Part shown: positions 2-15,260 of the stretch, in pieces
Numbering within the stretch: position 1 is the stretch's first letter
Layout: the number at the start of each line of letters is the position of its first letter
Source of the DNA: Candidatus Latescibacterota bacterium
Lineage (GTDB): Bacteria; Latescibacterota; UBA2968; UBA8231
Assembly (NCBI GenBank): GCA_965205655.1
Contig: CBDBIJ010000136.1
Location: forward strand, 1-15,260
Direction of reading: 5' to 3'
DNA length: 15,260 bases
Translations under genes and position numbers: made by a program
The notes under the pieces: generated by a model
The model's input: only the letters and a program-made list of their open reading frames with translations
What the model was told of the DNA's origin: nothing
Database searches by the model: none

Positions 2-799
2 GCCCTGGGTGGCGTGGCGCTCACCGAGGAGGAGTCCGTGGGCTTCTCGGTCGGCACCGCCGTCGAACTCACCGACGAACTCGAGCTAACCCTCGACTAC
101 TTCGACATCTCCGTCAAGGACCGCATCTCCCTGACCGGGAACATCGAGATTACGGAGGAGATCTCCCGGCTGATCCAGGAGAAGGAGGCCCTGAAGGGGG
201 TCAGCGTTCTCCAGGAGATCAGGTTCTTCTCCAACGACTTCGACACCGGCACCCGGGGCATCGACCTGGTGCTGTCCTGGAGGCGGGTCTGGGACAGCCA
301 GTGCTTGTCAACCGTCGACTTCGCCTGGAACTGGACCACCACCAACCTCGATGACTTTTCGCAGGTGCGGCGAGTCACCGAGTTCCTCGGTACGTCCTTG
401 GACGAGCCGATCGACGTCAGCCTGTTGACGCGCCGGCGCCACGTGGAACTGGAGCAGATGAACCCCGAGCACCGCCTGGTGCTCACCGGCCGCCATCAGC
501 TGGGTTCCTGGAACGCCATGCTGCGGCCCAGCTATTTTGGCGATTGGAAGGCCTGCCGCTTCCAGGCCAATAGCTGTGGCGACCTCGATTCCTTCGACGG
601 GAGCGTCATCGTCGACGCCGAAGCCGGCTACGCCATAAACGAGCGCTACCGGTTGGGGTTGGGGGTGCAGAATATGTTCGATTCAGCGCCCGATGCCGCC
701 CCCGAGGAGACGGCGGGCCAGGGTAATCTACGTCCGGCGAGCACCCCCTGGGATTACAACGGCGCCTTCTGGTACACGCGCTTGTTTGTGGAATTATAG
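2..799 (+). CDS. TonB-dependent outer-membrane receptor, C-terminal beta-barrel part (5'-truncated by window edge)
   Basis: The frame is open from base 2 to TAG at 797-799. Receptor-like segments include LTLDYFDISVKDRI, FFSNDFDTGTRGIDL, LGLGVQNMFD..P and a terminal amphipathic strand NGAFWYTRLFVEL. Confidence 0.88.
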   Translation, partial: ALGGVALTEEESVGFSVGTAVELTDELELTLDYFDISVKDRISLTGNIEITEEISRLIQEKEALKGVSVLQEIRFFSNDFDTGTRGIDLVLSWRRVWDSQCLSTVDFAWNWTTTNLDDFSQVRRVTEFLGTSLDEPIDVSLLTRRRHVELEQMNPEHRLVLTGRHQLGSWNAMLRPSYFGDWKACRFQANSCGDLDSFDGSVIVDAEAGYAINERYRLGLGVQNMFDSAPDAAPEETAGQGNLRPASTPWDYNGAFWYTRLFVEL

Positions 800-1152: not shown

Positions 1153-1171
1153 TAGTGGTTCAACTAGGTAG
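1153..1171. repeat. IS630 terminal inverted repeat at the transposase 3' end, including target TA
   Basis: TAGTGGTTCAACTAGGTAG matches the reverse complement of 2122-2140 (TAGTGGTTGATCCAGTTAG) at 15/19 positions. Confidence 0.85.
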
Positions 1172-2138
1172 CAGTGCGGGGTAGAGACGCTTGAGCTTGA
1201 TTCGTGCATCCGCCGTCGTGAAATGCCAATTGATGACGGGCGGGTTTTCGAGGCGCTCCGTGAGCCAGGCCTTCACGTGTTTTCCCAACTGCTGGATCGT
1301 CGCGATGCGACGATTGAGGCATTGCCGGAAGAGCACGTTCAGTCCGATCTCGGCCATGTTGAGCCAGCTGCCGTGTGTCGGGGTGTAGTGGATGTCGAGT
1401 TTGTCAGCGATGCGCTTGGCTTCCTCCGGTTCGAAGACCTCGTAGAGGGCCGCCTTTCTTATGAGTGCTCAAGTTGTCCATCACCAGCGTGATCTCCTCC
1501 GCCTCAGGGTAGTGGACGTCGACGAGATCTCTGACGGTGTGAGCCCAGTCTCTCATCGTGCGCCGTTCGCTCACTCGGATGTGGGAGCGACCCGTGAAGG
1601 GCTCCAGCATCATGAAGACGTTGGCGACCCCGTTGCGGACGTATTCATGGTGATACCGTGCCGGACACCCAGGCGCCACCGGCAGGGGCCGCTGCGTTTC
1701 GCCGATCAACTGCTTGCTTGTCTCGTCCAGACAAACCAACGGGTGCTTCGGGTCGTACGGCCATTGATAGACATCCAACACGTCCTCCATCGCGCAGACG
1801 AACTCGGCACCGGGTTTGCCCGGCAGGCACCACATCTCCCGCCGCCAAGGCTTCAGCTCGTTTTTTTTAACGTCTTGCGGACCGTTTCCGGGCTGACACT
1901 GTCAACCAGCTCCAAGGCCACGAGGCGTCCTGCCAGCAGCTTCAGGGTTCCAGTGCCTCCTTCCCCTCGAGATCAAACCGTGCAGGTGAGCTCGCTCCTC
2001 TGCTGTCAGCGTGACGATGTATTTCTTCGTGGGCAATGTCGATCTCCTCTCCTGACAAAGGGGCCTCAGGAGAAGGATACGAGCCCCGGCCTCAAAACGC
2101 TAGTTCCAATGTCCCGCAATCCTAACTGGATCAACCAC
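1155..2138 (-). mobile_element. IS630-family insertion sequence, internally deleted and defective
   Basis: Imperfect terminal inverted repeats match at 15/19 including the flanking TA. TA at 1153-1154 and 2139-2140 each lie within CTAG. The element contains IS630 DDE transposase sequence. Confidence 0.9.
1160..2036 (-). pseudogene. IS630 transposase (orfA/orfB with A8 slippage site), degenerate
   Basis: orfA starts at TTG 2036 after an AGGAG RBS and reads MPTKKYIVTLTAEER...HW/TLKLLAGRLVALELVDSVSPETVRKTLKK. The A8 run at 1861-1868 leads by -1 shift into NELKPW..MWCLP. orfB has CLDETSKQL, VMDNLSTH, YTPTHGSWLNMAEI and FTTADARIKLKRLYP. Extra frameshifts occur near 1455 and 1949. Confidence 0.9.
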
Positions 2139-2140
2139 TA
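2122..2140. repeat. IS630 terminal inverted repeat at the transposase 5' end, including target TA
   Basis: CTAACTGGATCAACCACTA is the partner of 1153-1171. Confidence 0.85.
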
Positions 2141-2515: not shown

Positions 2516-4093
2516 TCACTCGTTCCTCTTTTCCCGGGGCGGTGAGGCGATGAAATCTTCCCCTGCTTCCCGTCGCATGTAGCTACTGAGATAGTCCCGC
2601 AGAGAGTCCCACATGGCGCCGAGTGACTGCGCCTCGTCTTTGATTTTGAGGTACTTTTCCCTGTGGCTGATCGGGTGCAGGCCGATGCGATAGCTGCCCG
2701 CCAGTCCGACGGGAAAGTCATCCAGGGTTTTGTCTTTGCCGGCAACGGTCAAGCTTCCGACCTCTATCCGGAAATTCTCGGACCCGGAGCCGGATCGGAT
2801 CCTTTCCACACGGCCGTAGACCACGGAGTCGAAGTCCCCAACCTCCTTGTCCAGCATGAAGTTGACCGGAGATCCGATCTCGATGCCTACCATTTTCGCG
2901 CGGGGCAGCTCGAGTCCGATCCGCTTGCGCTGCTCGCCAACCCAGATTTCGGCGACGAGCTCACCGCGCCGGACATGTGAGGTCGAACGGGAGCCGGCCA
3001 AATAGATCAGCTCTCCATGGTTCCATCCCGGTTCGTTCGAAGCAGTGGTCAGTCCGGCGATGGCTTCCGCATCGAGATCTGCCCCCGCCGGGCTTCTACC
3101 CAGGACCTGTCCCGACTTTGTGCGGTCGCGAGAATGTGACGGCGCTGCCACGTACGCCAGGTGCGTCAACCATTCTCGCTGCGACTGGGTGCGGAACTTG
3201 AGAAAATCGGTCTGCGCCTTTTCGTAGCGGTACTCCTGCTCTAACACATCACCTTCCTCGCCGTCACCGAGCTCTGCGCTCAATTGGCGTTCCTCCAGAC
3301 CTAGTTGCTCGTGGCTTGTTTTCAGACGTTCGTACTCACGTTCAATGTCGCGGAATTCTCGTTCCAGAATCAGTCCTCGCTCGAACAGTTTGCGATACCC
3401 CTCCAACGCCGATTCGCCGCTGGCAGCCTGTCGCTCGAACTGCTCCCTCTCGAATCCAATCTGCTGGCGCTCCAGGGTTCGTACCTGGAGCTCGGTACTC
3501 GTCTGCTGACGTTCCCGCAGATGCTGGGACAGCAGCAAGTCCACATACGCCTCCCGGGGGCGTACCTCCTCCTCCAGTTGTGCCAGCTCCACTACTTCCT
3601 TGGCAAAGTCGGCGATCAGCAGCCGCTCCCCCGGGTAGATCGTCTGCCCTTCCGATTTCAACCGCGCGCTGATGAAGAAATCGTCCTGGGCGTAAAGTCG
3701 CACCATATCGCTCGAGTGGGGCACGATACGGGCTCCATCGCCGGAGACAAACTTGTAGGTCGCGCCTTCGAGAAAACGGCTGATTTTCGGCACGACTGAA
3801 ACGACCTGGTACACCACAATGGCGACAATGGCGGCCAGCAGCACGAGGCCATACGCCGATTTCAACAGGCGACTGAGGACGCGAGAAGCCAGCGGCGCAA
3901 CCAACAGAGTGAGCGCCACAAAAGGATGGCCGGCCGCCAATGCGATGCCGAGGCAGACAAAGACCCAGACTACCCACCAGAAATTGCGACGCACTAACAC
4001 GTAGCGTCTGCCCCGCTGGGCGAGAAAGGCGCGGTCGCGAATCTTGACAATCGCCTCTTCCGCCGACTTGGCTAAAACCCGGATCTCGTTCAT
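2516..4093 (-). CDS. HlyD-like membrane fusion (periplasmic adaptor) protein, atypical, 525 aa
   Basis: N-terminal hydrophobic segments, a lipoyl-like half motif (EGQTIYPGERL), a long coiled coil with the LFERGLI hairpin turn, a second half motif (HVRRGELVAEI) and a beta-barrel part (IEIGSPVNF...GRVERI). It starts 3 bp after the ABC gene. Confidence 0.75.
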   Translation of the reverse strand: MNEIRVLAKSAEEAIVKIRDRAFLAQRGRRYVLVRRNFWWVVWVFVCLGIALAAGHPFVALTLLVAPLASRVLSRLLKSAYGLVLLAAIVAIVVYQVVSVVPKISRFLEGATYKFVSGDGARIVPHSSDMVRLYAQDDFFISARLKSEGQTIYPGERLLIADFAKEVVELAQLEEEVRPREAYVDLLLSQHLRERQQTSTELQVRTLERQQIGFEREQFERQAASGESALEGYRKLFERGLILEREFRDIEREYERLKTSHEQLGLEERQLSAELGDGEEGDVLEQEYRYEKAQTDFLKFRTQSQREWLTHLAYVAAPSHSRDRTKSGQVLGRSPAGADLDAEAIAGLTTASNEPGWNHGELIYLAGSRSTSHVRRGELVAEIWVGEQRKRIGLELPRAKMVGIEIGSPVNFMLDKEVGDFDSVVYGRVERIRSGSGSENFRIEVGSLTVAGKDKTLDDFPVGLAGSYRIGLHPISHREKYLKIKDEAQSLGAMWDSLRDYLSSYMRREAGEDFIASPPREKRNE

Positions 4094-4096
4094 GAG

Positions 4097-6094
4097 TCAC
4101 CCATCCTCCGACAGGCGCATGAGCTCCAGATCGGCTGGCTGCAGCGCCAGGGCGTGACGGACATTTTCGCGGGCCAACGCTGTGAATTCGGGACAGGTCC
4201 TCATCAGCTCCCGCCGCTGCCCGGCCCCGATGAGGCGGCCGTCGTGGAGGAAAACGAAAAAGACCTTGTCGTCCGGCAGGGCAAAGTACGGTGCCAGCGT
4301 GTGTGCCACCAGCACCACGGTCCGCTCTTGCTCCGCCAGAGTGGCGATGGTATCCACGAGCTCATTCTCGGAAAATTTGTCCAGGCCGCTGAACGGTTCG
4401 TCGAAAAGCAAAATCGGGCACCGGGCCAGGAGCGAAAAACCGATGCTCACCCGCTGTTGCTGGCCGCCGGATAGATTCCCCGAAAGGCCGGCCATCCGAT
4501 CCAACCCTTCGCGGCGCTCCATGAGCTCCACTCGCTGCGGCTCGAAGCCGAACAGCGTGCGTCCCAACCTTTGCAGGGGACTGGTGCGCACATCGGTCGT
4601 AGAAATCTTGACCTCCTGCTCCATCGCCTCGATCTCATCCAGAACATTTGCCATGCGCAGGGCCCTCTGCAGATCCTCCTCGCTTGAGTCGGGGGAAAGC
4701 AGTTCGGCGTTCTGCAGGATGGACATGGACAACAGCGAGATTCTCTGGGACATATAGGCCATCAACAGGGAGAGGTCCTTGCGATCGATGTCGCGCACGT
4801 CGGCCCCGCCGAGCTGCACCGTTCCCTCACGGGCTTCCAGGTTGCCCCTCAGCAACTTCAACACGGTCGATTTGCCGCAGCCGCTGGCCCCGCACAGTAC
4901 CGTCATCTGCCCGTTTGGCACGCGAAAGGTTATGTCCTCAAGCGCCGGGCGGGCAGACTCGGGTGTATCCGGATAGCGAAAGGTGACGTTTTTAAACTCG
5001 ATTTCGTGACTCGTTATGGGTACTCGGGTGGTGCGATCTGTGCGCTGTTCACCCTTTGCCGTAGCGAAGAATTCCTCGCTCCACTGCACGCTCACCATCA
5101 ACGGAATGATTTCCTGCCAGGATCGAATCAGGTCCAGGATCGGCACGAGCACCCGCTGGGCGTAGGCGTTGATCACAAGGTAAAAGGTCAGGGAGATGGC
5201 CCCTTCGATCACCTGGAGACCGGCGATGAGGGCGATGCCGATCGTAAACGTGATGGACACTGCGTTGCTGCACGCTTCCCAGCCATTCCGATAATTTCGG
5301 GTCATGCGTTGCTGGGCAATCATCCCCTCTACCTTGGCCAGCGTCCGTCCACTCATGCGCTCTACTGCGTCGAACGATTTGATCAGGTCGGAATTCGCCA
5401 GAGACTCGTTGAACATGGACATGGCCTCATCCCGCAGTCGACTGTGCCTCCGATGGTTGCCGCGAAGGCGAGACCGAAAGAAGGACATCGCGAACACCTG
5501 CAGTGGAATTACTAGAAGCAGCAACGCGAATATCACCGACGACATGAAGTAGATCACCGCAAGAGTGGCGACGATATTGACGAGATTGGTGATGAGGCCG
5601 GGGAGGAAACTCTTGTAGAATTGACTGTAGGCCGGCAGATCGCTGCTGTAGGTCGTGTAAAGTCGGCCGAGTCCCAACGACTCCTTCGACTCTTCGTTCA
5701 TCTCCTCCATGTCGCCCAGAAATCGCCGCCGCAGGTCGTATATCAGACTGAAAGAGCCTTCGGTGGACAGATACCGGTAGAGCATTGTGACGGCAACGCA
5801 GACGACCTCCAGAGCTGCCCAGACCAGGCATATGGTGATCAGCGCATGACTGCTCTCTTGCAAATCGACCACGAGCGGCAGGATGCTGCCGATGATGATC
5901 GCAGCGGGGATGGGGCGCAGAAATTCCAGACCAACGTGCACCAGCGCTACCAGAATGGAACTGCAGTACCAGTGCAGGCTGACGGCGCCTCGCTTCAGCA
6001 TGAACCAGACCAGCTCGTGGTCCCGAAGCCTCTTCTTCTCCTCGGTGGCCAGACGGTATTCCAGCATTCTATCCGATGCGGCTACTCCCGTCAT
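4097..6094 (-). CDS. ABC exporter with fused transmembrane and ATP-binding domains, 665 aa
   Basis: About six TM segments, Walker A GASGCGKST, Q-loop YMSQ, signature LSGGQQQR, Walker B ILLFDEP and H-loop VAHT. No N-terminal C39 peptidase domain. Confidence 0.93.
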   Translation of the reverse strand: MTGVAASDRMLEYRLATEEKKRLRDHELVWFMLKRGAVSLHWYCSSILVALVHVGLEFLRPIPAAIIIGSILPLVVDLQESSHALITICLVWAALEVVCVAVTMLYRYLSTEGSFSLIYDLRRRFLGDMEEMNEESKESLGLGRLYTTYSSDLPAYSQFYKSFLPGLITNLVNIVATLAVIYFMSSVIFALLLLVIPLQVFAMSFFRSRLRGNHRRHSRLRDEAMSMFNESLANSDLIKSFDAVERMSGRTLAKVEGMIAQQRMTRNYRNGWEACSNAVSITFTIGIALIAGLQVIEGAISLTFYLVINAYAQRVLVPILDLIRSWQEIIPLMVSVQWSEEFFATAKGEQRTDRTTRVPITSHEIEFKNVTFRYPDTPESARPALEDITFRVPNGQMTVLCGASGCGKSTVLKLLRGNLEAREGTVQLGGADVRDIDRKDLSLLMAYMSQRISLLSMSILQNAELLSPDSSEEDLQRALRMANVLDEIEAMEQEVKISTTDVRTSPLQRLGRTLFGFEPQRVELMERREGLDRMAGLSGNLSGGQQQRVSIGFSLLARCPILLFDEPFSGLDKFSENELVDTIATLAEQERTVVLVAHTLAPYFALPDDKVFFVFLHDGRLIGAGQRRELMRTCPEFTALARENVRHALALQPADLELMRLSEDG

Positions 6095-6188: not shown

Positions 6189-6548
6189 CTACGCCAATGG
6201 CACTATTCTGGATCGTCGAATGCGTCGATCACGTGTGAGCAGCGGGACTGAGTGCACGACACTGGTGGCAGCGATCAGTTCGTCCGCGGGATCGCCCTTG
6301 AAGTCTAGACGGGTGGAGGCTCTTGCCGTGGTGAAATCCACTGGCCATACGTGCAAACCGGTGATGACCCTTTCGACTTCCGGATCGTCGAGATCGATCT
6401 CGATTCGCTTCAGTTGAGCCAGCTTGGCGAGTTCCCATAGCGCCATGGCCGCAACTCCCCATTGGTTCTCAGCCAGGAGATCCCGTTCCCGCTTGCGTAG
6501 CTTTCCACTCAAGGCGTGGATAAGCATATGAGTGTCAAGATTGAGCAT
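6189..6548 (-). CDS. vapC: Type II TA toxin, VapC/PIN-domain ribonuclease, 119 aa
   Basis: MLNLDTH..., LWE, DPADELIAATS and LLTRD supply the PIN acidic residues. The start overlaps the antitoxin 3' end, so the likely start is ATG 6548 rather than 6671. Confidence 0.9.
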   Translation of the reverse strand: MLNLDTHMLIHALSGKLRKRERDLLAENQWGVAAMALWELAKLAQLKRIEIDLDDPEVERVITGLHVWPVDFTTARASTRLDFKGDPADELIAATSVVHSVPLLTRDRRIRRSRIVPLA

Positions 6549-6759
6549 CGGCGTCCCAGGAAATGCCGGTCGAATTGATGTCGCCGCTGACCCGAATCTT
6601 GTCCCGCAGGATGCCGATGAGCGACGACGGGGGCTGAGGGTAGGGAACGACCCGGGCCACGGGTTTTCCACGTTTGGTTATGACAAGGCCTTCGGGATCG
6701 AGCTGACCCAATAGACGAAGGCACTGTTCCTTGAACTTGGCGGCACCTATACGTTTCAT
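6535..6759 (-). CDS. Type II TA antitoxin, Phd/YefM family
   Basis: MKRIGAAKFKEQCLRLL...LVITKRGKPVARVVP is a Phd signature. GGGAG RBS; directly upstream of and overlapping vapC. Confidence 0.9.
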   Translation of the reverse strand: MKRIGAAKFKEQCLRLLGQLDPEGLVITKRGKPVARVVPYPQPPSSLIGILRDKIRVSGDINSTGISWDADAQS

Positions 6760-6786
6760 CACTAAATAGCTCCCAAAGTAGACACT

Positions 6787-7529: not shown

Positions 7530-7673
7530 TGACCGTTTCCCGATTTCTGTTTGAGTTGCAAAAGCCGCGCTTCCGTGATATATAGTGAGCTTCTACGCAA
7601 TGTCGCGGATTTGCCTTGCCTCTCCATACGTTGTGGTAGCGTGCTCATCCGGCTCGAATCATGGGAAGTGAAA

Positions 7674-8567
7674 ATGGTCCCAACGATCAGTAGCATCTGC
7701 AAAGGATCCATCGGAATCTGTCATCTTCCCCGCACCTGGTGGAAGACGCTGACACGTGCCGTGAATCTGCTCGATCCGTCCTATCCTGATAACAGCGGCG
7801 GACTGGACGCATGGTGTCTTCGCGAGATTGGCCTGGACATCGACGAGACCTACGACTATCTGAGGTCCGAGCTCCCTGATTATGTGACGTTTGAACGCTG
7901 GATTCTGGACCGAAAAAACGGCCAACTACCGGACGCGCCGATCGAGAGGTTCAACGACTGTGTGCGCTACCGACGCCACATTCGCCCCGAAAAGATTTCC
8001 GAAACGTATGCGGATATCGGTTTTGACCCCGACGTACACACCTACACATCAGCTCTCCTGCTCAACACGCTGCAGGACTGGCATCTGTTCCATGCCAATG
8101 ACCATAACTCGGATCAGTGTGACATACCTGCTGAGATATCTCCACTCGTCAGCAGTGTCGACGTCGGCCCGCTCGATGTGATGCATTTGCCGCGCACGTG
8201 GTATAAGGTTCTCCTCGATGCGAAGGGACTGTTGAACAGCGACTATCCTGCCTGCGGGGGCGGGCTGGATCAAGGTGCGCTCGACGCGCTTGGTCTCGAT
8301 CGTGAAGGGACCCTTGCCCATATCCGCGACAATCGACCGACCTACATGGATTTCGAGGGTTGGGTGATCGCGCAGATCGGGGAGGTGGATCGCGACAGGG
8401 TCGATGCTTTTCAGACCTTCATGCTCAACCGGGAGCATGCCGAGCCCAAGCGAACGGGTATCCACGAGCTGACTGGTTGCGATCGATCGATTACGAATGG
8501 GGTGATTCTCAATCACCTCGAGGACTGGCGTTACGCCTACGACGTCTGCATTGTCCCGCACAAATAA
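7674..8567 (+). CDS. Protein with two tandem DUF5069-like domains, 297 aa
   Basis: Two internal repeats share P..SS...G.....HLPRTW.K......LL...YP...GGLD...L...GLD...T.........P.Y..FE.W and LN.L.DW. ATG 7674 lies at the start of repeat 1. Confidence 0.75.
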   Translation: MVPTISSICKGSIGICHLPRTWWKTLTRAVNLLDPSYPDNSGGLDAWCLREIGLDIDETYDYLRSELPDYVTFERWILDRKNGQLPDAPIERFNDCVRYRRHIRPEKISETYADIGFDPDVHTYTSALLLNTLQDWHLFHANDHNSDQCDIPAEISPLVSSVDVGPLDVMHLPRTWYKVLLDAKGLLNSDYPACGGGLDQGALDALGLDREGTLAHIRDNRPTYMDFEGWVIAQIGEVDRDRVDAFQTFMLNREHAEPKRTGIHELTGCDRSITNGVILNHLEDWRYAYDVCIVPHK

Positions 8568-8579
8568 GAGAGAAGCCGC

Positions 8580-9732
8580 CTACCCGAGCGTCCAGCGGAT
8601 GGACATGATGCCGCCGGCGTCTTCAGCGTGAGGCAGATAGACGAACTTGCCATTCCGCAGAGCATACTTCTTGTTGAGATAATAGGCGGTCACAAGCTCC
8701 CCGGGTGAAGGCTCGGCGGTGACGGGATAGCCGAAATCATGTTGCACCGGGAGCTCGTAGAGGGTGATGAAATTCTCGTAGTCCCACGTTTTGCCCTCGT
8801 CGTAGGAGAGCATCGCCCTGACGGACAGCGGATCTCTGCGATAGCCGTAGGAACAAAGCACGGCGCCCGAGTCTAAAACCAGCAGGTGCGGCGGCCCCCC
8901 CCCACACGGGTATCCTCTCCGGTTCCGTCCACGTACGCCCCGAATCGTAGGAATGCGATTGGTAGTGAAACATATCGTTCCACTCGCACGCTTCGCTACG
9001 AAACATGACGACCAAATGGCCTGGACTCGTCTCCACGAGATGGTTTTCGATGATGAGCATTTCACGAGGCATCTCATCGGAGCGCGGTATTTCGCTGATC
9101 TTCTCCCACGTGTCCCCCTTGTCCGCCGACTCCCACACTGAGACTTTCACGTCATACTTGGCCGCGGTCGTTGTGTCAGCCTCACGCATGGGACCCGTCC
9201 CCACATAGATCAGGCGCCCATCGTTCAGAATGCCCGGACCCGCATGCTGACCGGTAGGGGTATCCGCTGGCGGGCCCCAGACATGCCCGCCGTCTTCCGA
9301 GCGGATCAACCACCCGATCGAAGGGAGCTCTTCTGTCAGTCCCATCCGTTCGATGCGAGCCTGCCACTGATACTTCCACCGCTCGGGGATAGGGCAGTCT
9401 CCGGGATAAACCCCATTCATTATAATATAGGGCACCCAATCCGTAGAGCTGAACGACGTGAGAATTATGGTGCCGTCTGGATGGCTCCTGAGGCTGGCAT
9501 CACGATCATCGATCTCGCTGTTGAAAACCTCCTGCGGTAGGGACCAGGTTCGACCTCTATCGCTGGACCTCATCACGACGACCCGGCCCAGCGGTCCCAC
9601 GTGATGCATCCGCTCAGATGCCGAAACCACTATCACACCGTCTTTTGTGGTGCATATTCCCGGCCACCCATACATCTGGTCGGGACGCGAAGCCGCGACT
9701 CCGTGCTCGATATTTCCTGCGGTGAGCGCCAT
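8580..9732 (-). pseudogene. Sialidase-family (BNR/Asp-box beta-propeller) glycoside hydrolase, split by one frameshift in a G9 tract
   Basis: GGGGAG RBS. Five Asp boxes: SSDRGRTW, SEDGGHVW, SADKGDTW, SYDSGRTW and SYDEGKTW. Removing one base from C9 at 8895-8903 gives ...IPVWGGPPHLLVL...YGYR...DFGYP. Confidence 0.8.
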
Positions 9733-10899: not shown

Positions 10900-11298
10900 T
10901 CATTTCAGAAGTCGGAAAAAGGGGAGCTTTGCGGCTTTCTTGTCGAACGTGACGCCCCCTTCGCAACCGCTGGCCTGTGCTGAGTGCGCAATCAGCAGGT
11001 CTGACAGATCAGCTTTGCTGGTCTTGCCGTCCACCAGGACACGTTGAAGCACTCCATCCTTCTCGAATTCGAGAACCGGCATTCTTCTCATGTCCTCGAT
11101 CGCGTCCAGCATTTCAGCTCGAGATTTTTTGTAGGCACTTTCCAGGACCCAGACGGTCTCCACTACTACGACGAAGGGTACGAACAGGGTTTCGCCGTCA
11201 GACTCCGCCCGCCTGAGGCGCCTGTACACGGCTCGAGCCTGCCGTTCGTCGTCTCGCACGAGGAACCGCACAACGACGTTCGTGTCAAGGGCGATCAT
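10900..11298 (-). CDS. vapC: Type II TA toxin, VapC/PIN domain, 132 aa
   Basis: MIALDTNVVVRFL..DD, VETVWVL, DLSDLLI and TFDKK. The start overlaps the antitoxin stop (ATGA). Confidence 0.92.
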   Translation of the reverse strand: MIALDTNVVVRFLVRDDERQARAVYRRLRRAESDGETLFVPFVVVVETVWVLESAYKKSRAEMLDAIEDMRRMPVLEFEKDGVLQRVLVDGKTSKADLSDLLIAHSAQASGCEGGVTFDKKAAKLPFFRLLK

Positions 11299-11549
11299 CG
11301 GCTGCCACGGCGTACTCGCATCCTGGTCGAAACGGCATCTGCCATCTCATCCACGGTCTTTCGTGGCTGACCCTTCTTGTGAAGTATGCCGAAAACCTCA
11401 TCGACGGATTTCGTGACCGGCCTCAACACCGCTTCGGTCTGTCCGCGCACGACGAACTCGACACGGTCCCCCGTGTGGAGTTGAAGAGAGTCTCTGACCG
11501 CCTTCGGTATCGTGATCTGGCCCTTGCTCGTGACGGTGGCCGTAGCCAT
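11295..11549 (-). CDS. AbrB/MazE/SpoVT-family antitoxin (VapB-like), 84 aa
   Basis: ATVTSKGQITIPKAVRDSLQLHTGDRVEF is a swapped-hairpin motif. AAGGAG RBS. Confidence 0.92.
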   Translation of the reverse strand: MATATVTSKGQITIPKAVRDSLQLHTGDRVEFVVRGQTEAVLRPVTKSVDEVFGILHKKGQPRKTVDEMADAVSTRMRVRRGSR

Positions 11550-13452: not shown

Positions 13453-14210
13453 CTGGGCCTTTCGCTCTTATACAAGTTCCGCGGCAACGTCCAAGGATTT
13501 AGACCCATGGCGCATTGTCGTTAGTATCGGGCGAAGATCGGGCGCTGTCGAGAAGTGTTTCAAGGCGTGTTGGTGGTGGATGGCTGTGCTGGGAGGTGAC
13601 ATAGGTATGAGACCGCAGTTGTGTCGCTCTTAAGGCCACCTGCCAACCATCCGCTGGCAACGTACCCGGTACAACTGTTCAGCACATAGTGCCCTTGACA
13701 GCCGCGACCGAAGACTCTTTCTCTTCCTATCCTTATCATTCACACCCATAGAGGAAACCCGGTCGAGCGCTGTCGTGCGTGAAGTGATACGGCGATTTGC
13801 ACTGGCTTGCGCCGCAGTGGCGTTTACTGCAGGGCTCGGCGAGTTCGGCCTCTTAGCCTACGCGAAGCTGCAGGGCCCGGCGGCAAGGGGAGTGGCAACT
13901 GGTGCGACCTCGCAACCGCTGACTGATTTCGATGTGATGCCACCCGCCGACACAACCGCCGGCGACGGCATCATGCGAAGGATGCCGGTCCTGGGATGGC
14001 TTCCAAAGGAGGGGACGCAGAGGCGGCGCATCGACGCGCAGGGCCGAGAGTACACTTTTCGAATCAACTCCACGGGCCAGCGTGGGGGTGAGGTAGGGCC
14101 GCGCGCCCAGCCGGAACGGCGTATCCTGTTCCTCGGCGATTCCTTCACCATGGCCGCCAGTGTCCGGGAAGCCGACACTTTCGTCGAGCGAACCGGCCGG
14201 TTGATCGCCG

Positions 14211-14956
14211 ACGACGACGTACCCGTGCGGGTCGTAAACGGCGGAGTCGATGGTTACGGCACCTATCAGGAGCTGGCCTACTACCGCCACATAGGGCGTT
14301 TCCTCGAGCCCGACACCGTCGTCCTCTGCTTTTACACCGGCAACGATTTCCGCGACAGCATGGTAGCCACGCGGCAGGGCGACTTGGTGAGCCGGGCGCT
14401 TGTGGGAGGTTCTCACAGGTACGCTGGACGCCATGAGGATCCCTATCTGTACGACAGCTACGATGAGCTGTTGCCCGACCCGTTATCCGGCGACCCTGTC
14501 GTGCGGCCCGCGTCGGCGGGGTGAAGTCCCATTTTCAGTTGAAACGACGACGTACCCGTGCGGGTCGTAAACGGCGGAGTCGATGGTTACGGCACCTATC
14601 AGGAGCTGGCCTACTACCGCCACATAGGGCGTTTCCTCGAGCCCGACACCGTCGTCCTCTGCTTTTACACCGGCAACGATTTCGGCAGGTACGACACGAC
14701 GTTCTTGCGCTTGTGATACTGGCAGCGCGACAGCATGGTAGCCACGCGGCAGGGCGACTTGGTGAGCCGGGCGCTTGTGGGAGGTTCTCACAGGTACGCT
14801 GGACGCCACGAGGATCCCTATCTGTACGACAGCTACGATGAGCTGTTGCCCGACCCGTTAGGGCCTGGTAGGCGTCCAGCGCGACCTCCGTGTCGCTGTC
14901 GACGTTGCGTACCCGGGGCACCTCCGGCGACCCTGTCGTGCGGCCCGCGTCGGCGG
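14211..14956. repeat. Tandem duplication of a 309-bp segment (14211-14519; second copy 14544-14956, interrupted twice)
   Basis: The copies are identical except a synonymous CAT/CAC difference (14434 vs 14809) and insertions at 14684-14725 (42 nt) and 14861-14922 (62 nt). A 24-nt spacer lies at 14520-14543. Confidence 0.95.
14520..14922 (-). mobile_element. Three dispersed IS256-family-like fragments (14520-14543, 14684-14725, 14861-14922)
   Basis: Minus-strand translations give EVPRVRNVDSDTEVALDAYQAL and RCQYHKRKNVVSYLP, the latter carrying the CxxH motif of IS256/Mutator transposases. TTCAACTGAAAATGGGACTTCACC resembles an FN-stop plus terminal inverted repeat. Confidence 0.7.
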
Positions 14957-14988
14957 CGGCGGCGTGGGTAGCCCGCAATTCGATTCCT

Positions 14989-15073
14989 GCTGATGCGTCT
15001 GGTTAGCTGGCGCTCTCGGAAGCTCTGGGACCGGCTGACCGGCGGCATCGAAACGCTGATGCGTCTGGTTAGC
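14989..15073. repeat. 19-bp direct repeat GCTGATGCGTCTGGTTAGC (14989-15007 and 15055-15073)
   Basis: Exact match with 66-nt period; both copies encode LMRLVS in the same frame. Confidence 0.9.
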
Positions 15074-15260
15074 CGCTATTTCTACTACGAAATCGGTTTT
15101 TTCCAGAAGCGCGACGACGGCTATTTCCAGACCGCGCGCGAGCTGACCCGTGATTGCATCGCGGCGCTGCGCCGGTCCACCACGGCTGCAGGCGCCGAGC
15201 TTCTCGTCGCGATCATCCCGTCGCGGAATCAGGTCGATGCCGAGGGTTGGAAGCAGACCC

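What the first reader, a model, noticed from the sequence alone, without database searches (positions are those of the whole stretch)
14520..14922. IS256-like fragments interleaved in collinear order through a duplicated gene segment
Seen: the three non-gene inserts in the SGNH duplication (62, 42 and 24 nt) read on the minus strand, in order, as EVPRVRNVDSDTEVALDAYQAL, then RCQYHKRKNVVSYLP, then FN-stop followed by AAATGGGACTTCACC. Known: PRVR near the N-terminus and RCxxHKxxNV are IS256/Mutator transposase motifs, in that order. The translations run a few bases into host sequence at the junctions, suggesting microhomology. Inference: either a consensus chimera of IS-containing and IS-free haplotypes with the insertion at 14519/14520, or real serial template switching between the IS and its target. 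The first is more likely; the second would be very unusual.
Basis: partly seen in the sequence, partly recalled or inferred. Interest (0 to 1): 0.7.

Follow-up and report, generated by a model that had tools for sequence, protein, structure and literature searches.

The report
Polishing artefact at an IS256 insertion
The patchwork of transposon scraps inside a duplicated gene piece is almost certainly not real DNA: assembly-polishing software working in 500-base windows blended a version of the gene carrying an IS256 insertion with a version lacking it.

Summary
A 309-nt piece of an SGNH-hydrolase gene is repeated, and the repeat is broken by inserts of 24, 42 and 62 nt. All three match one 1,427-bp IS256 of the same assembly at 100%, in order. 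The mosaic is a polishing artefact. (1) Single contigs from two runs of two studies cross the gene without inserts 2 and 3; no listed record bridges a mosaic junction. (2) The junctions fall where greedy, edit-distance-style embedding of host letters in the IS puts them; 2 of 20,000 shuffles match as well. (3) Four junction constraints fix a period of exactly 500 nt and a boundary at 14498, two bases from 29 x 500. (4) The same model accounts for a 4-nt IS scrap and an 11-nt leftover further right, both absent from those contigs. (5) A racon-like simulation with one read mix gave the deposit within 13-15 of 1,361 letters; other mixes fitted worse. The IS-bearing allele and the software are inferred; raw reads were not available. 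The scan's notes held no such finding. Not a biological feature.

The parts
13775..14519 (+). 5' part of an SGNH/GDSL-hydrolase-like gene, up to the IS insertion point
   Evidence: ORF list; PF13472 E 5e-4 and NF047475 E 1.9e-8, both below their curated cut-offs; 51-62% identical stretches in four relatives' loci
14211..14519 (+). Copy 1 of the duplicated 309 nt: inferred draft (backbone) sequence; T at 14434
   Evidence: role inferred from the model
14512..14519 (+). Predicted 8-bp target site of the IS256 insertion; its second copy is not separately visible in the deposit
   Evidence: 8-bp duplications at 3 of 6 full-length copies elsewhere; the fourth window constraint fits a draft longer by 1,427+8 nt; inference
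14520..14543 (-). Insert 1: IS positions 1-24, the terminal inverted repeat downstream of the transposase gene (non-coding)
   Evidence: this terminal variant occurs otherwise only on C135 and C48
14544..14683 (+). Copy 2, piece 1 (140 nt): IS-free read sequence placed in the first IS window
14684..14725 (-). Insert 2: IS positions 478-519 (transposase CxxH region), backbone left over at a window boundary
   Evidence: skipped by contigs of X1 and X2
14726..14860 (+). Copy 2, piece 2 (135 nt); C at 14809, as in both public contigs
   Evidence: (0 other letters)
14861..14922 (-). Insert 3: IS positions 980-1041 (transposase PRVR region), backbone left over at a window boundary
   Evidence: skipped by contigs of X1 and X2
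14923..14956 (+). Copy 2, piece 3 (34 nt)
14982..14985 (-). Fourth IS scrap (4 nt = IS 1218-1221), lying between two consecutive read-matched backbone bases
   Evidence: left out in both contigs; given by the model; identity checked
15060..15072 (+). Leftover backbone: 11 nt equal to 14994-15004, ending at the fourth predicted window boundary, plus 1 nt; it creates the false 19-nt repeat 14989/15055
14957..15260 (+). 3' continuation of the gene, cut by the contig end
   Evidence: 47-52% identity to relatives; frame open for 344 codons once the letters missing from the public contigs are left out

Best explanation
The deposited sequence is a software consensus, not a molecule. Step 1 (inferred): the draft contig carried a full 1,427-bp IS256 with an 8-bp target duplication after 14519, while a majority of spanning reads lacked it. 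Step 2 (method from the racon paper; path computed here): each read was aligned to the draft by unit-cost edit distance. That cost does not favour one long gap, so the IS-free reads were smeared over the IS, one host base per about 3.6 IS bases. Step 3 (method from papers; period and phase computed here): the draft was cut into non-overlapping 500-nt windows, so each IS window received about 135-140 nt of host sequence. Step 4 (inferred, simulated): the partial-order consensus followed those read pieces but kept the backbone before and after them. This left IS scraps at window edges and a second copy of 309 host bases. The underlying gene is intact in the public contigs.
For: Contigs of X1 (depth 9.66) and X2 (depth 3.74, another study) cross 14544-15260 in one piece and skip 42 and 62 nt. 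Forward greedy embedding puts 14350 at IS 477 and 14485 at IS 979; backward embedding puts 14211, 14351 and 14486 at IS 25, 520 and 1042. These are the observed junctions. Both pieces were this tight in 2 of 20,000 shuffles. Predicted host letters per 500 IS bases: 140 +/- 10 and 132 +/- 11; observed 140 and 135. The four boundary ranges, shifted by 0, 500, 1000 and 1500, are 14498-14523, 14496-14498, 14498-14503 and 14487-14498; they meet only at 14498. Junctions 2-4 together allow only a period of 500 (arithmetic). The model also yields the 4-nt scrap and the 11-nt leftover. Simulation with 5 spanning IS-free, 3 IS-bearing and 3 clipped reads gave the duplication and all three inserts, within 13-15 of 1,361 letters, in 8 of 8 runs. 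Racon aligns with Edlib and splices non-overlapping windows (PMC5411768, passages); metaMDBG uses 500-nt windows and SPOA (PMC11392814, passages).
Against: No raw reads were available, and contigs drop rare variants; 5 pieces and 7 loose ends were not displayed. The IS-bearing allele was not seen in any run. The path's starting point was fitted: 23 of 411 tested starts give it. The simulation needed two assumed draft-versus-read differences that I did not observe; with only the T/C difference it gave a different chimera (889-890 letters off). Of 7 read mixes, 1 came within 15 letters, 3 within 47-167, 2 within 299-457, and 1 kept the whole IS. The best mix missed the T at 14434, the 4-nt scrap and the letter at 15072. 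The simulation code follows my recollection of edlib, SPOA and racon. This is the only locus of the assembly with the full interleaved pattern.
Confidence: 0.97

Rival explanations
1. An assembly artefact of another kind (graph mis-join, or another polisher with column-wise voting) produced the mosaic, and the 500-nt fit is incidental.
For: The software is unknown. False duplications and unsupported sequence occur with several long-read assemblers (10.1101/2025.04.22.649783, parts 1-3 of 5 read). My simulation has free parameters.
Against: A mis-join does not predict junctions on the greedy path, a period of exactly 500 anchored at the contig start, or the 4-nt and 11-nt leftovers.
Confidence: 0.02
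2. A real rearrangement: a polymerase switched repeatedly between an IS256 copy and the target gene on 1-4-nt microhomologies (FoSTeS/MMBIR-like; mechanism recalled), leaving collinear scraps of both.
For: The junctions share 1-4 letters and both templates are copied in order. Contig data cannot exclude a rare molecule.
Against: Two studies' contigs show the gene without inserts 2 and 3 and without 16 further letters. No biological reason is known to me for switches on a 500-nt lattice counted from the contig's first base, or on an edit-distance path. An aligner yields the same shared letters.
Confidence: 0.005
3. Old biological decay: an IS256 insertion plus tandem duplication, later eroded by deletions.
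For: Truncated copies of this IS exist in the assembly.
Against: The scraps are 100% identical to intact copies, and copy 2 differs from copy 1 at 1 of 309 sites. Deletions cannot place host sequence inside the IS in order. The 500-nt fit would stay unexplained.
Confidence: 0.005

Closest known systems
Racon window polishing (Vaser et al. 2017, PMC5411768) and its re-implementation in metaMDBG (Benoit et al. 2024, PMC11392814)
   Same: Edit-distance alignment used to cut reads into non-overlapping backbone windows (racon passage); 500-nt windows with SPOA consensus (metaMDBG passage). The locus fits a period of 500 and a greedy path.
   Different: The passages I read describe the method, not this failure. 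Which program made this assembly is not known.
Haplotyping chimeras and false duplications in long-read metagenome assemblies (Trigodet et al. 2025, 10.1101/2025.04.22.649783)
   Same: A contig holding parts of two subpopulation-specific sequences at one locus, and a direct repeat that reads do not support.
   Different: In parts 1-3 of 5 that I read, these errors are shown by read clipping; no fine interleaving on a window lattice is described there.
IS256 family insertion sequences, such as ISCth4 (PMC7780238, passages)
   Same: The donor element has one IS256-family transposase ORF with a CxxH motif, imperfect terminal inverted repeats and 8-bp target duplications.
   Different: At this locus only 132 of 1,427 IS bases and one end are present. 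It is the trace of an insertion in a draft, not an element.
FoSTeS / MMBIR templated insertions (recalled; one search gave only two loosely related listings)
   Same: Serial short segments joined at microhomologies.
   Different: Those are real molecules. Here the junctions follow an aligner's path and a 500-nt lattice, and public contigs lack the inserts.

Membership tests
IS256 family (donor element, C135:33780-35190 and copies) | Single ORF encoding an IS256/Mutator transposase | tested here: met
   432-aa ORF; NF033543 222.5 bits, cut-off 150; PF00872 E 4e-38
IS256 family (donor element) | C/DxxH motif in the insertion domain (PMC7780238) | tested here: met
   CxxH motif seen in the translation; it lies in insert 2
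IS256 family (donor element) | Imperfect terminal inverted repeats of about 30 bp | tested here: met
   The ends align as an imperfect inverted repeat of about 28 bp
IS256 family (donor element) | 8-bp target site duplication | tested here: met
   3 of 6 full-length copies at 97% identity or more have exact 8-bp duplications; 3 do not
IS256 family (donor element) | DDE catalytic triad; copy-out/paste-in circles | not tested
   No alignment of catalytic residues was made; circles cannot be tested with these data
IS256 insertion (the window locus itself) | Both ends and a continuous element between target duplications | tested here: not met
   One end and scraps of 24, 42, 62 and 4 nt only
Windowed-consensus (racon-type) chimera | Junctions on a fixed window period | tested here: met
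   Period 500, boundary 14498, from four constraints
Windowed-consensus (racon-type) chimera | Lattice anchored at the contig start | tested here: met
   14498 is 2 from 29 x 500; best-fitting boundaries in the scan were 14499-14503
Windowed-consensus (racon-type) chimera | Read pieces follow a unit-cost (subsequence) path | tested here: met
   2 of 20,000 shuffles
Windowed-consensus (racon-type) chimera | No single molecule carries the junctions | tested here: inconclusive
   Contigs of two studies skip inserts 2 and 3 and no listed record bridges a junction, but these are contigs, not reads
Windowed-consensus (racon-type) chimera | Assembly was made with such a polisher | not testable with these tools
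   No provenance is given for the assembly
FoSTeS/MMBIR-type templated mosaic | Microhomology at junctions | tested here: inconclusive
   1-4 shared letters, equally expected from alignment
FoSTeS/MMBIR-type templated mosaic | Exists as DNA in a sample | tested here: inconclusive
   Not seen in 4 runs laid, 2 of which cover the gene and show it without the inserts; a rare molecule is not excluded

The most novel reading that the evidence does not exclude
A real DNA molecule in which replication hopped several times, in order, between an IS256 copy and its target gene on 1-4-nt microhomologies, giving a collinear IS/host mosaic. It is not formally excluded, because only contigs and no raw reads were seen.
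Probability: 0.005. Interest if true: 0.8.

Novelty: not a real feature. Interest (0 to 1): 0.08.

Why it matters
Biologically it matters little: the gene looks broken only because of the assembly, and an IS256 insertion polymorphism would be ordinary. Its use is as a warning and a test. Short, collinear scraps of a multi-copy element about 500 element-bases apart, interleaved with about 140-nt copies of the flanking sequence, with junctions near multiples of 500 from the contig start, point to window polishing and can be checked from sequence alone. Such scraps could otherwise be scored as template switching, new mosaics or pseudogenes in long-read metagenome genomes. I did not see this signature in the listings or in the text read; that search was not exhaustive.

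Tried and rejected
Genome-wide scan for a second interleaved locus: 9 collinear-pair groups, 4 of them this locus; none of the other 5 showed the full pattern. Relatives: 12 of 40 other genomes matched the region, none across the mosaic; matches were gene stretches at 65-72% or IS scraps. Runs X3 and X4 did not cover the gene, only IS pieces; 14455-14535 had no cover in X1-X3, which proves nothing. The stretch laid began at 14455, so most of copy 1 and the assumed difference near 14095-14117 were not checked. A minimal model with pure backward embedding over-predicted the leftover in the last window (49-58 letters off). Simulations with no IS-bearing reads, or no clipped reads, lost copy 1 or the inserts; an IS-bearing majority kept the whole IS. 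Other local duplications near multiples of 500: 4 of 20, binomial P 0.016, with threshold and end chosen after looking, so only a hint. Racon, edlib and SPOA themselves are not on the script machine. Earlier scan notes: 0 for the words searched; 6 notes on this genome, none on this subject.

Full report
Observation. The window is all of contig C136 of a 4.0-Mb, 150-contig assembly. A gene starting at 13775 resembles SGNH/GDSL hydrolases (PF13472 E 5e-4, NF047475 E 1.9e-8, both below cut-off). Its bases 14211-14519 recur at 14544-14956 in three pieces of 140, 135 and 34 nt, separated by inserts at 14520-14543, 14684-14725 and 14861-14922. The copies differ at one site, T 14434 versus C 14809, the third position of a His codon.

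The donor. The element is 1,427 bp, with imperfect terminal inverted repeats. Three of six full-length copies are flanked by exact 8-bp duplications. Its 432-aa ORF is an IS256-family transposase (NF033543, 222.5 bits against a cut-off of 150; PF00872) with a CxxH motif. This agrees with the family description in PMC7780238 (passages read). Counted from the end at C135:33780, the inserts are IS 1-24, 478-519 and 980-1041. Insert 1 is the non-coding terminus; its variant occurs otherwise only on C135 and C48.

Public data. Six runs hold part of the region; four were laid on 14455-15260. All are contigs, not reads. In X1 one 5,210-nt contig (depth 9.66) and in X2, from another study, one 5,709-nt contig (depth 3.74) cover 14544-15260 and skip 14684-14725 and 14861-14922. 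Both contigs read C at 14809, like copy 2. Both also lack 4 nt at 14982, 11 nt at 15060 and 1 nt at 15072. Records laid on the inserts continue into IS sequence, not host sequence. No listed record bridges a mosaic junction; 5 pieces and 7 loose ends were not displayed. X1 may be the source sample, so X2 is the independent witness. X3 and X4 do not cover the gene. With those letters left out, the frame from 13775 stays open for 344 codons to the contig end, and both halves resemble relatives' genes.

Geometry. The inserts lie about 500 IS bases apart and the host pieces are about 500/3.6 long. Under unit-cost edit distance a long deletion need not be one gap, because any embedding of the read as a subsequence costs the same. 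Greedy embedding predicts 140 +/- 10 and 132 +/- 11 host letters for IS 1-500 and 501-1000; 140 and 135 are seen. One forward path places 14350 at IS 477 and 14485 at IS 979, the last bases before inserts 2 and 3. Backward embedding places 14211, 14351 and 14486 at IS 25, 520 and 1042, the first bases after inserts 1, 2 and 3. In 20,000 shuffles that kept the shared end letters, piece 1 was this tight 137 times, piece 2 111 times, and both 2 times.

Lattice. In a model draft (IS plus 8-bp duplication after 14519), each break between read pieces limits where a window boundary can lie. Shifted by 0, 500, 1000 and 1500, the four ranges are 14498-14523, 14496-14498, 14498-14503 and 14487-14498, which meet only at 14498. 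Junctions 2 and 3 need a period of at least 500 and junctions 3 and 4 at most 500. Position 14498 is two bases from 29 x 500, as expected if windows were counted from the contig start and two bases were lost upstream; the chance of lying within 2 is about 1 in 100. The model also gives two features that were not used to set it: the 11 backbone letters left before the fourth boundary equal the 11 extra letters at 15060-15070, and the IS letters between two consecutive matched bases equal the 4 extra letters at 14982-14985. The path's start was fitted: 23 of 411 tested starts, 14095-14117, give it.

Method in print. Racon aligns each mapping by edit distance with Edlib only to cut reads into non-overlapping backbone windows, builds a partial-order consensus per window and splices the results (PMC5411768, passages). 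metaMDBG re-implements this with 500-nt windows and SPOA (PMC11392814, passages). Trigodet et al. report haplotype chimeras, contigs that follow a minor subpopulation, and false duplications in long-read metagenome assemblies (10.1101/2025.04.22.649783, parts 1-3 of 5 read; supplements not seen). I did not find this lattice signature in the listings; those were listings and abstract openings only.

Simulation. I wrote a racon-like program from recollection of the algorithms. It needed two assumed draft-versus-read differences, near 14106 and about 120 nt right of the insertion, to put all reads on the observed path; with only the T/C site it gave another chimera. Over 7 read mixes, 2 trimming settings and 4 seeds (56 runs), the mix of 5 spanning IS-free, 3 IS-bearing and 3 clipped reads gave the duplication and the three inserts within 13-15 of 1,361 letters in 8 of 8 runs. 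Three mixes were 47-167 letters off, two were 299-457 off, and an IS-bearing majority kept the whole IS. This shows that the mechanism is sufficient under those assumptions, not that it is unique. It suggests that both alleles were present among few reads.

Shown and inferred. Shown: the duplication, the identity and order of the inserts, the intact gene in two studies' contigs, the 500-nt fit and the greedy fit. Inferred: a draft with a full IS256 and 8-bp duplication at 14519; that this insertion is a real allele in the source population (clean end at the IS terminus, synonymous T/C difference); and the software. No run showed the IS-bearing allele.

Rivals. Real serial template switching would explain order and shared letters, but not a lattice counted from the contig start, nor absence of the inserts from two contigs (0.005). 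Decay of an old insertion cannot put host sequence inside the IS in order (0.005). Another type of assembly error remains possible (0.02). This is the only locus with the full pattern in this assembly. Four of 20 other local duplications end within 12 nt of a multiple of 500 (P 0.016, post hoc), and one IS256 copy on C119 lacks 126 nt at 9003|9004; these are hints only.

Verdict. Interest 0.08. The scan's earlier notes held nothing on this.

Noticed in passing
window 14989-15007 and 15055-15073: The 19-nt direct repeat found by the repeat finder is an artefact: 12 letters of its second copy are absent from both public contigs.
   Followed up: yes
G000 C21:13825-14180; C58:129741-130280; C110:13192-14203: Near-perfect local duplications whose first copy ends 3, 11 and 8 nt after a multiple of 500; possibly the same polishing effect.
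   Followed up: partly
G000 C76:17937-19349: A multi-copy element of about 1.29 kb starting at 18001 is flanked by a 68-nt perfect direct repeat: either an unusually long target duplication or a window artefact.
   Followed up: partly
G000 C119:7891-9194: A copy of the same IS256 lacks positions 190-315, with the junction at 9003|9004, close to 18 x 500.
   Followed up: partly
G000, many contigs: A second IS256 relative, about 81% identical, is present in roughly 30 copies; IS elements are often nested in one another, for example at C135:35190 and C35:10808.
   Followed up: no
window 1160-2140, - strand: An IS630-family transposase in pieces (NF033545 E 3.8e-23 on 1407-1835, below cut-off); programmed frameshift, decay or sequence error not examined.
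   Followed up: no
window 2516-6094, - strand: Adjacent ORFs that by eye resemble an ABC transporter (665 aa) and a membrane-fusion-type protein (525 aa); not scanned.
   Followed up: no
window 6189-6762 and 10900-11549, - strand: Two small gene pairs that by eye resemble antitoxin plus PIN-domain modules; the first PIN ORF has a doubtful start (recalled resemblance, not scanned).
   Followed up: no
window 7551-8567, + strand: A 338-aa ORF with an internally repeated half, of unknown family to me; not scanned.
   Followed up: no
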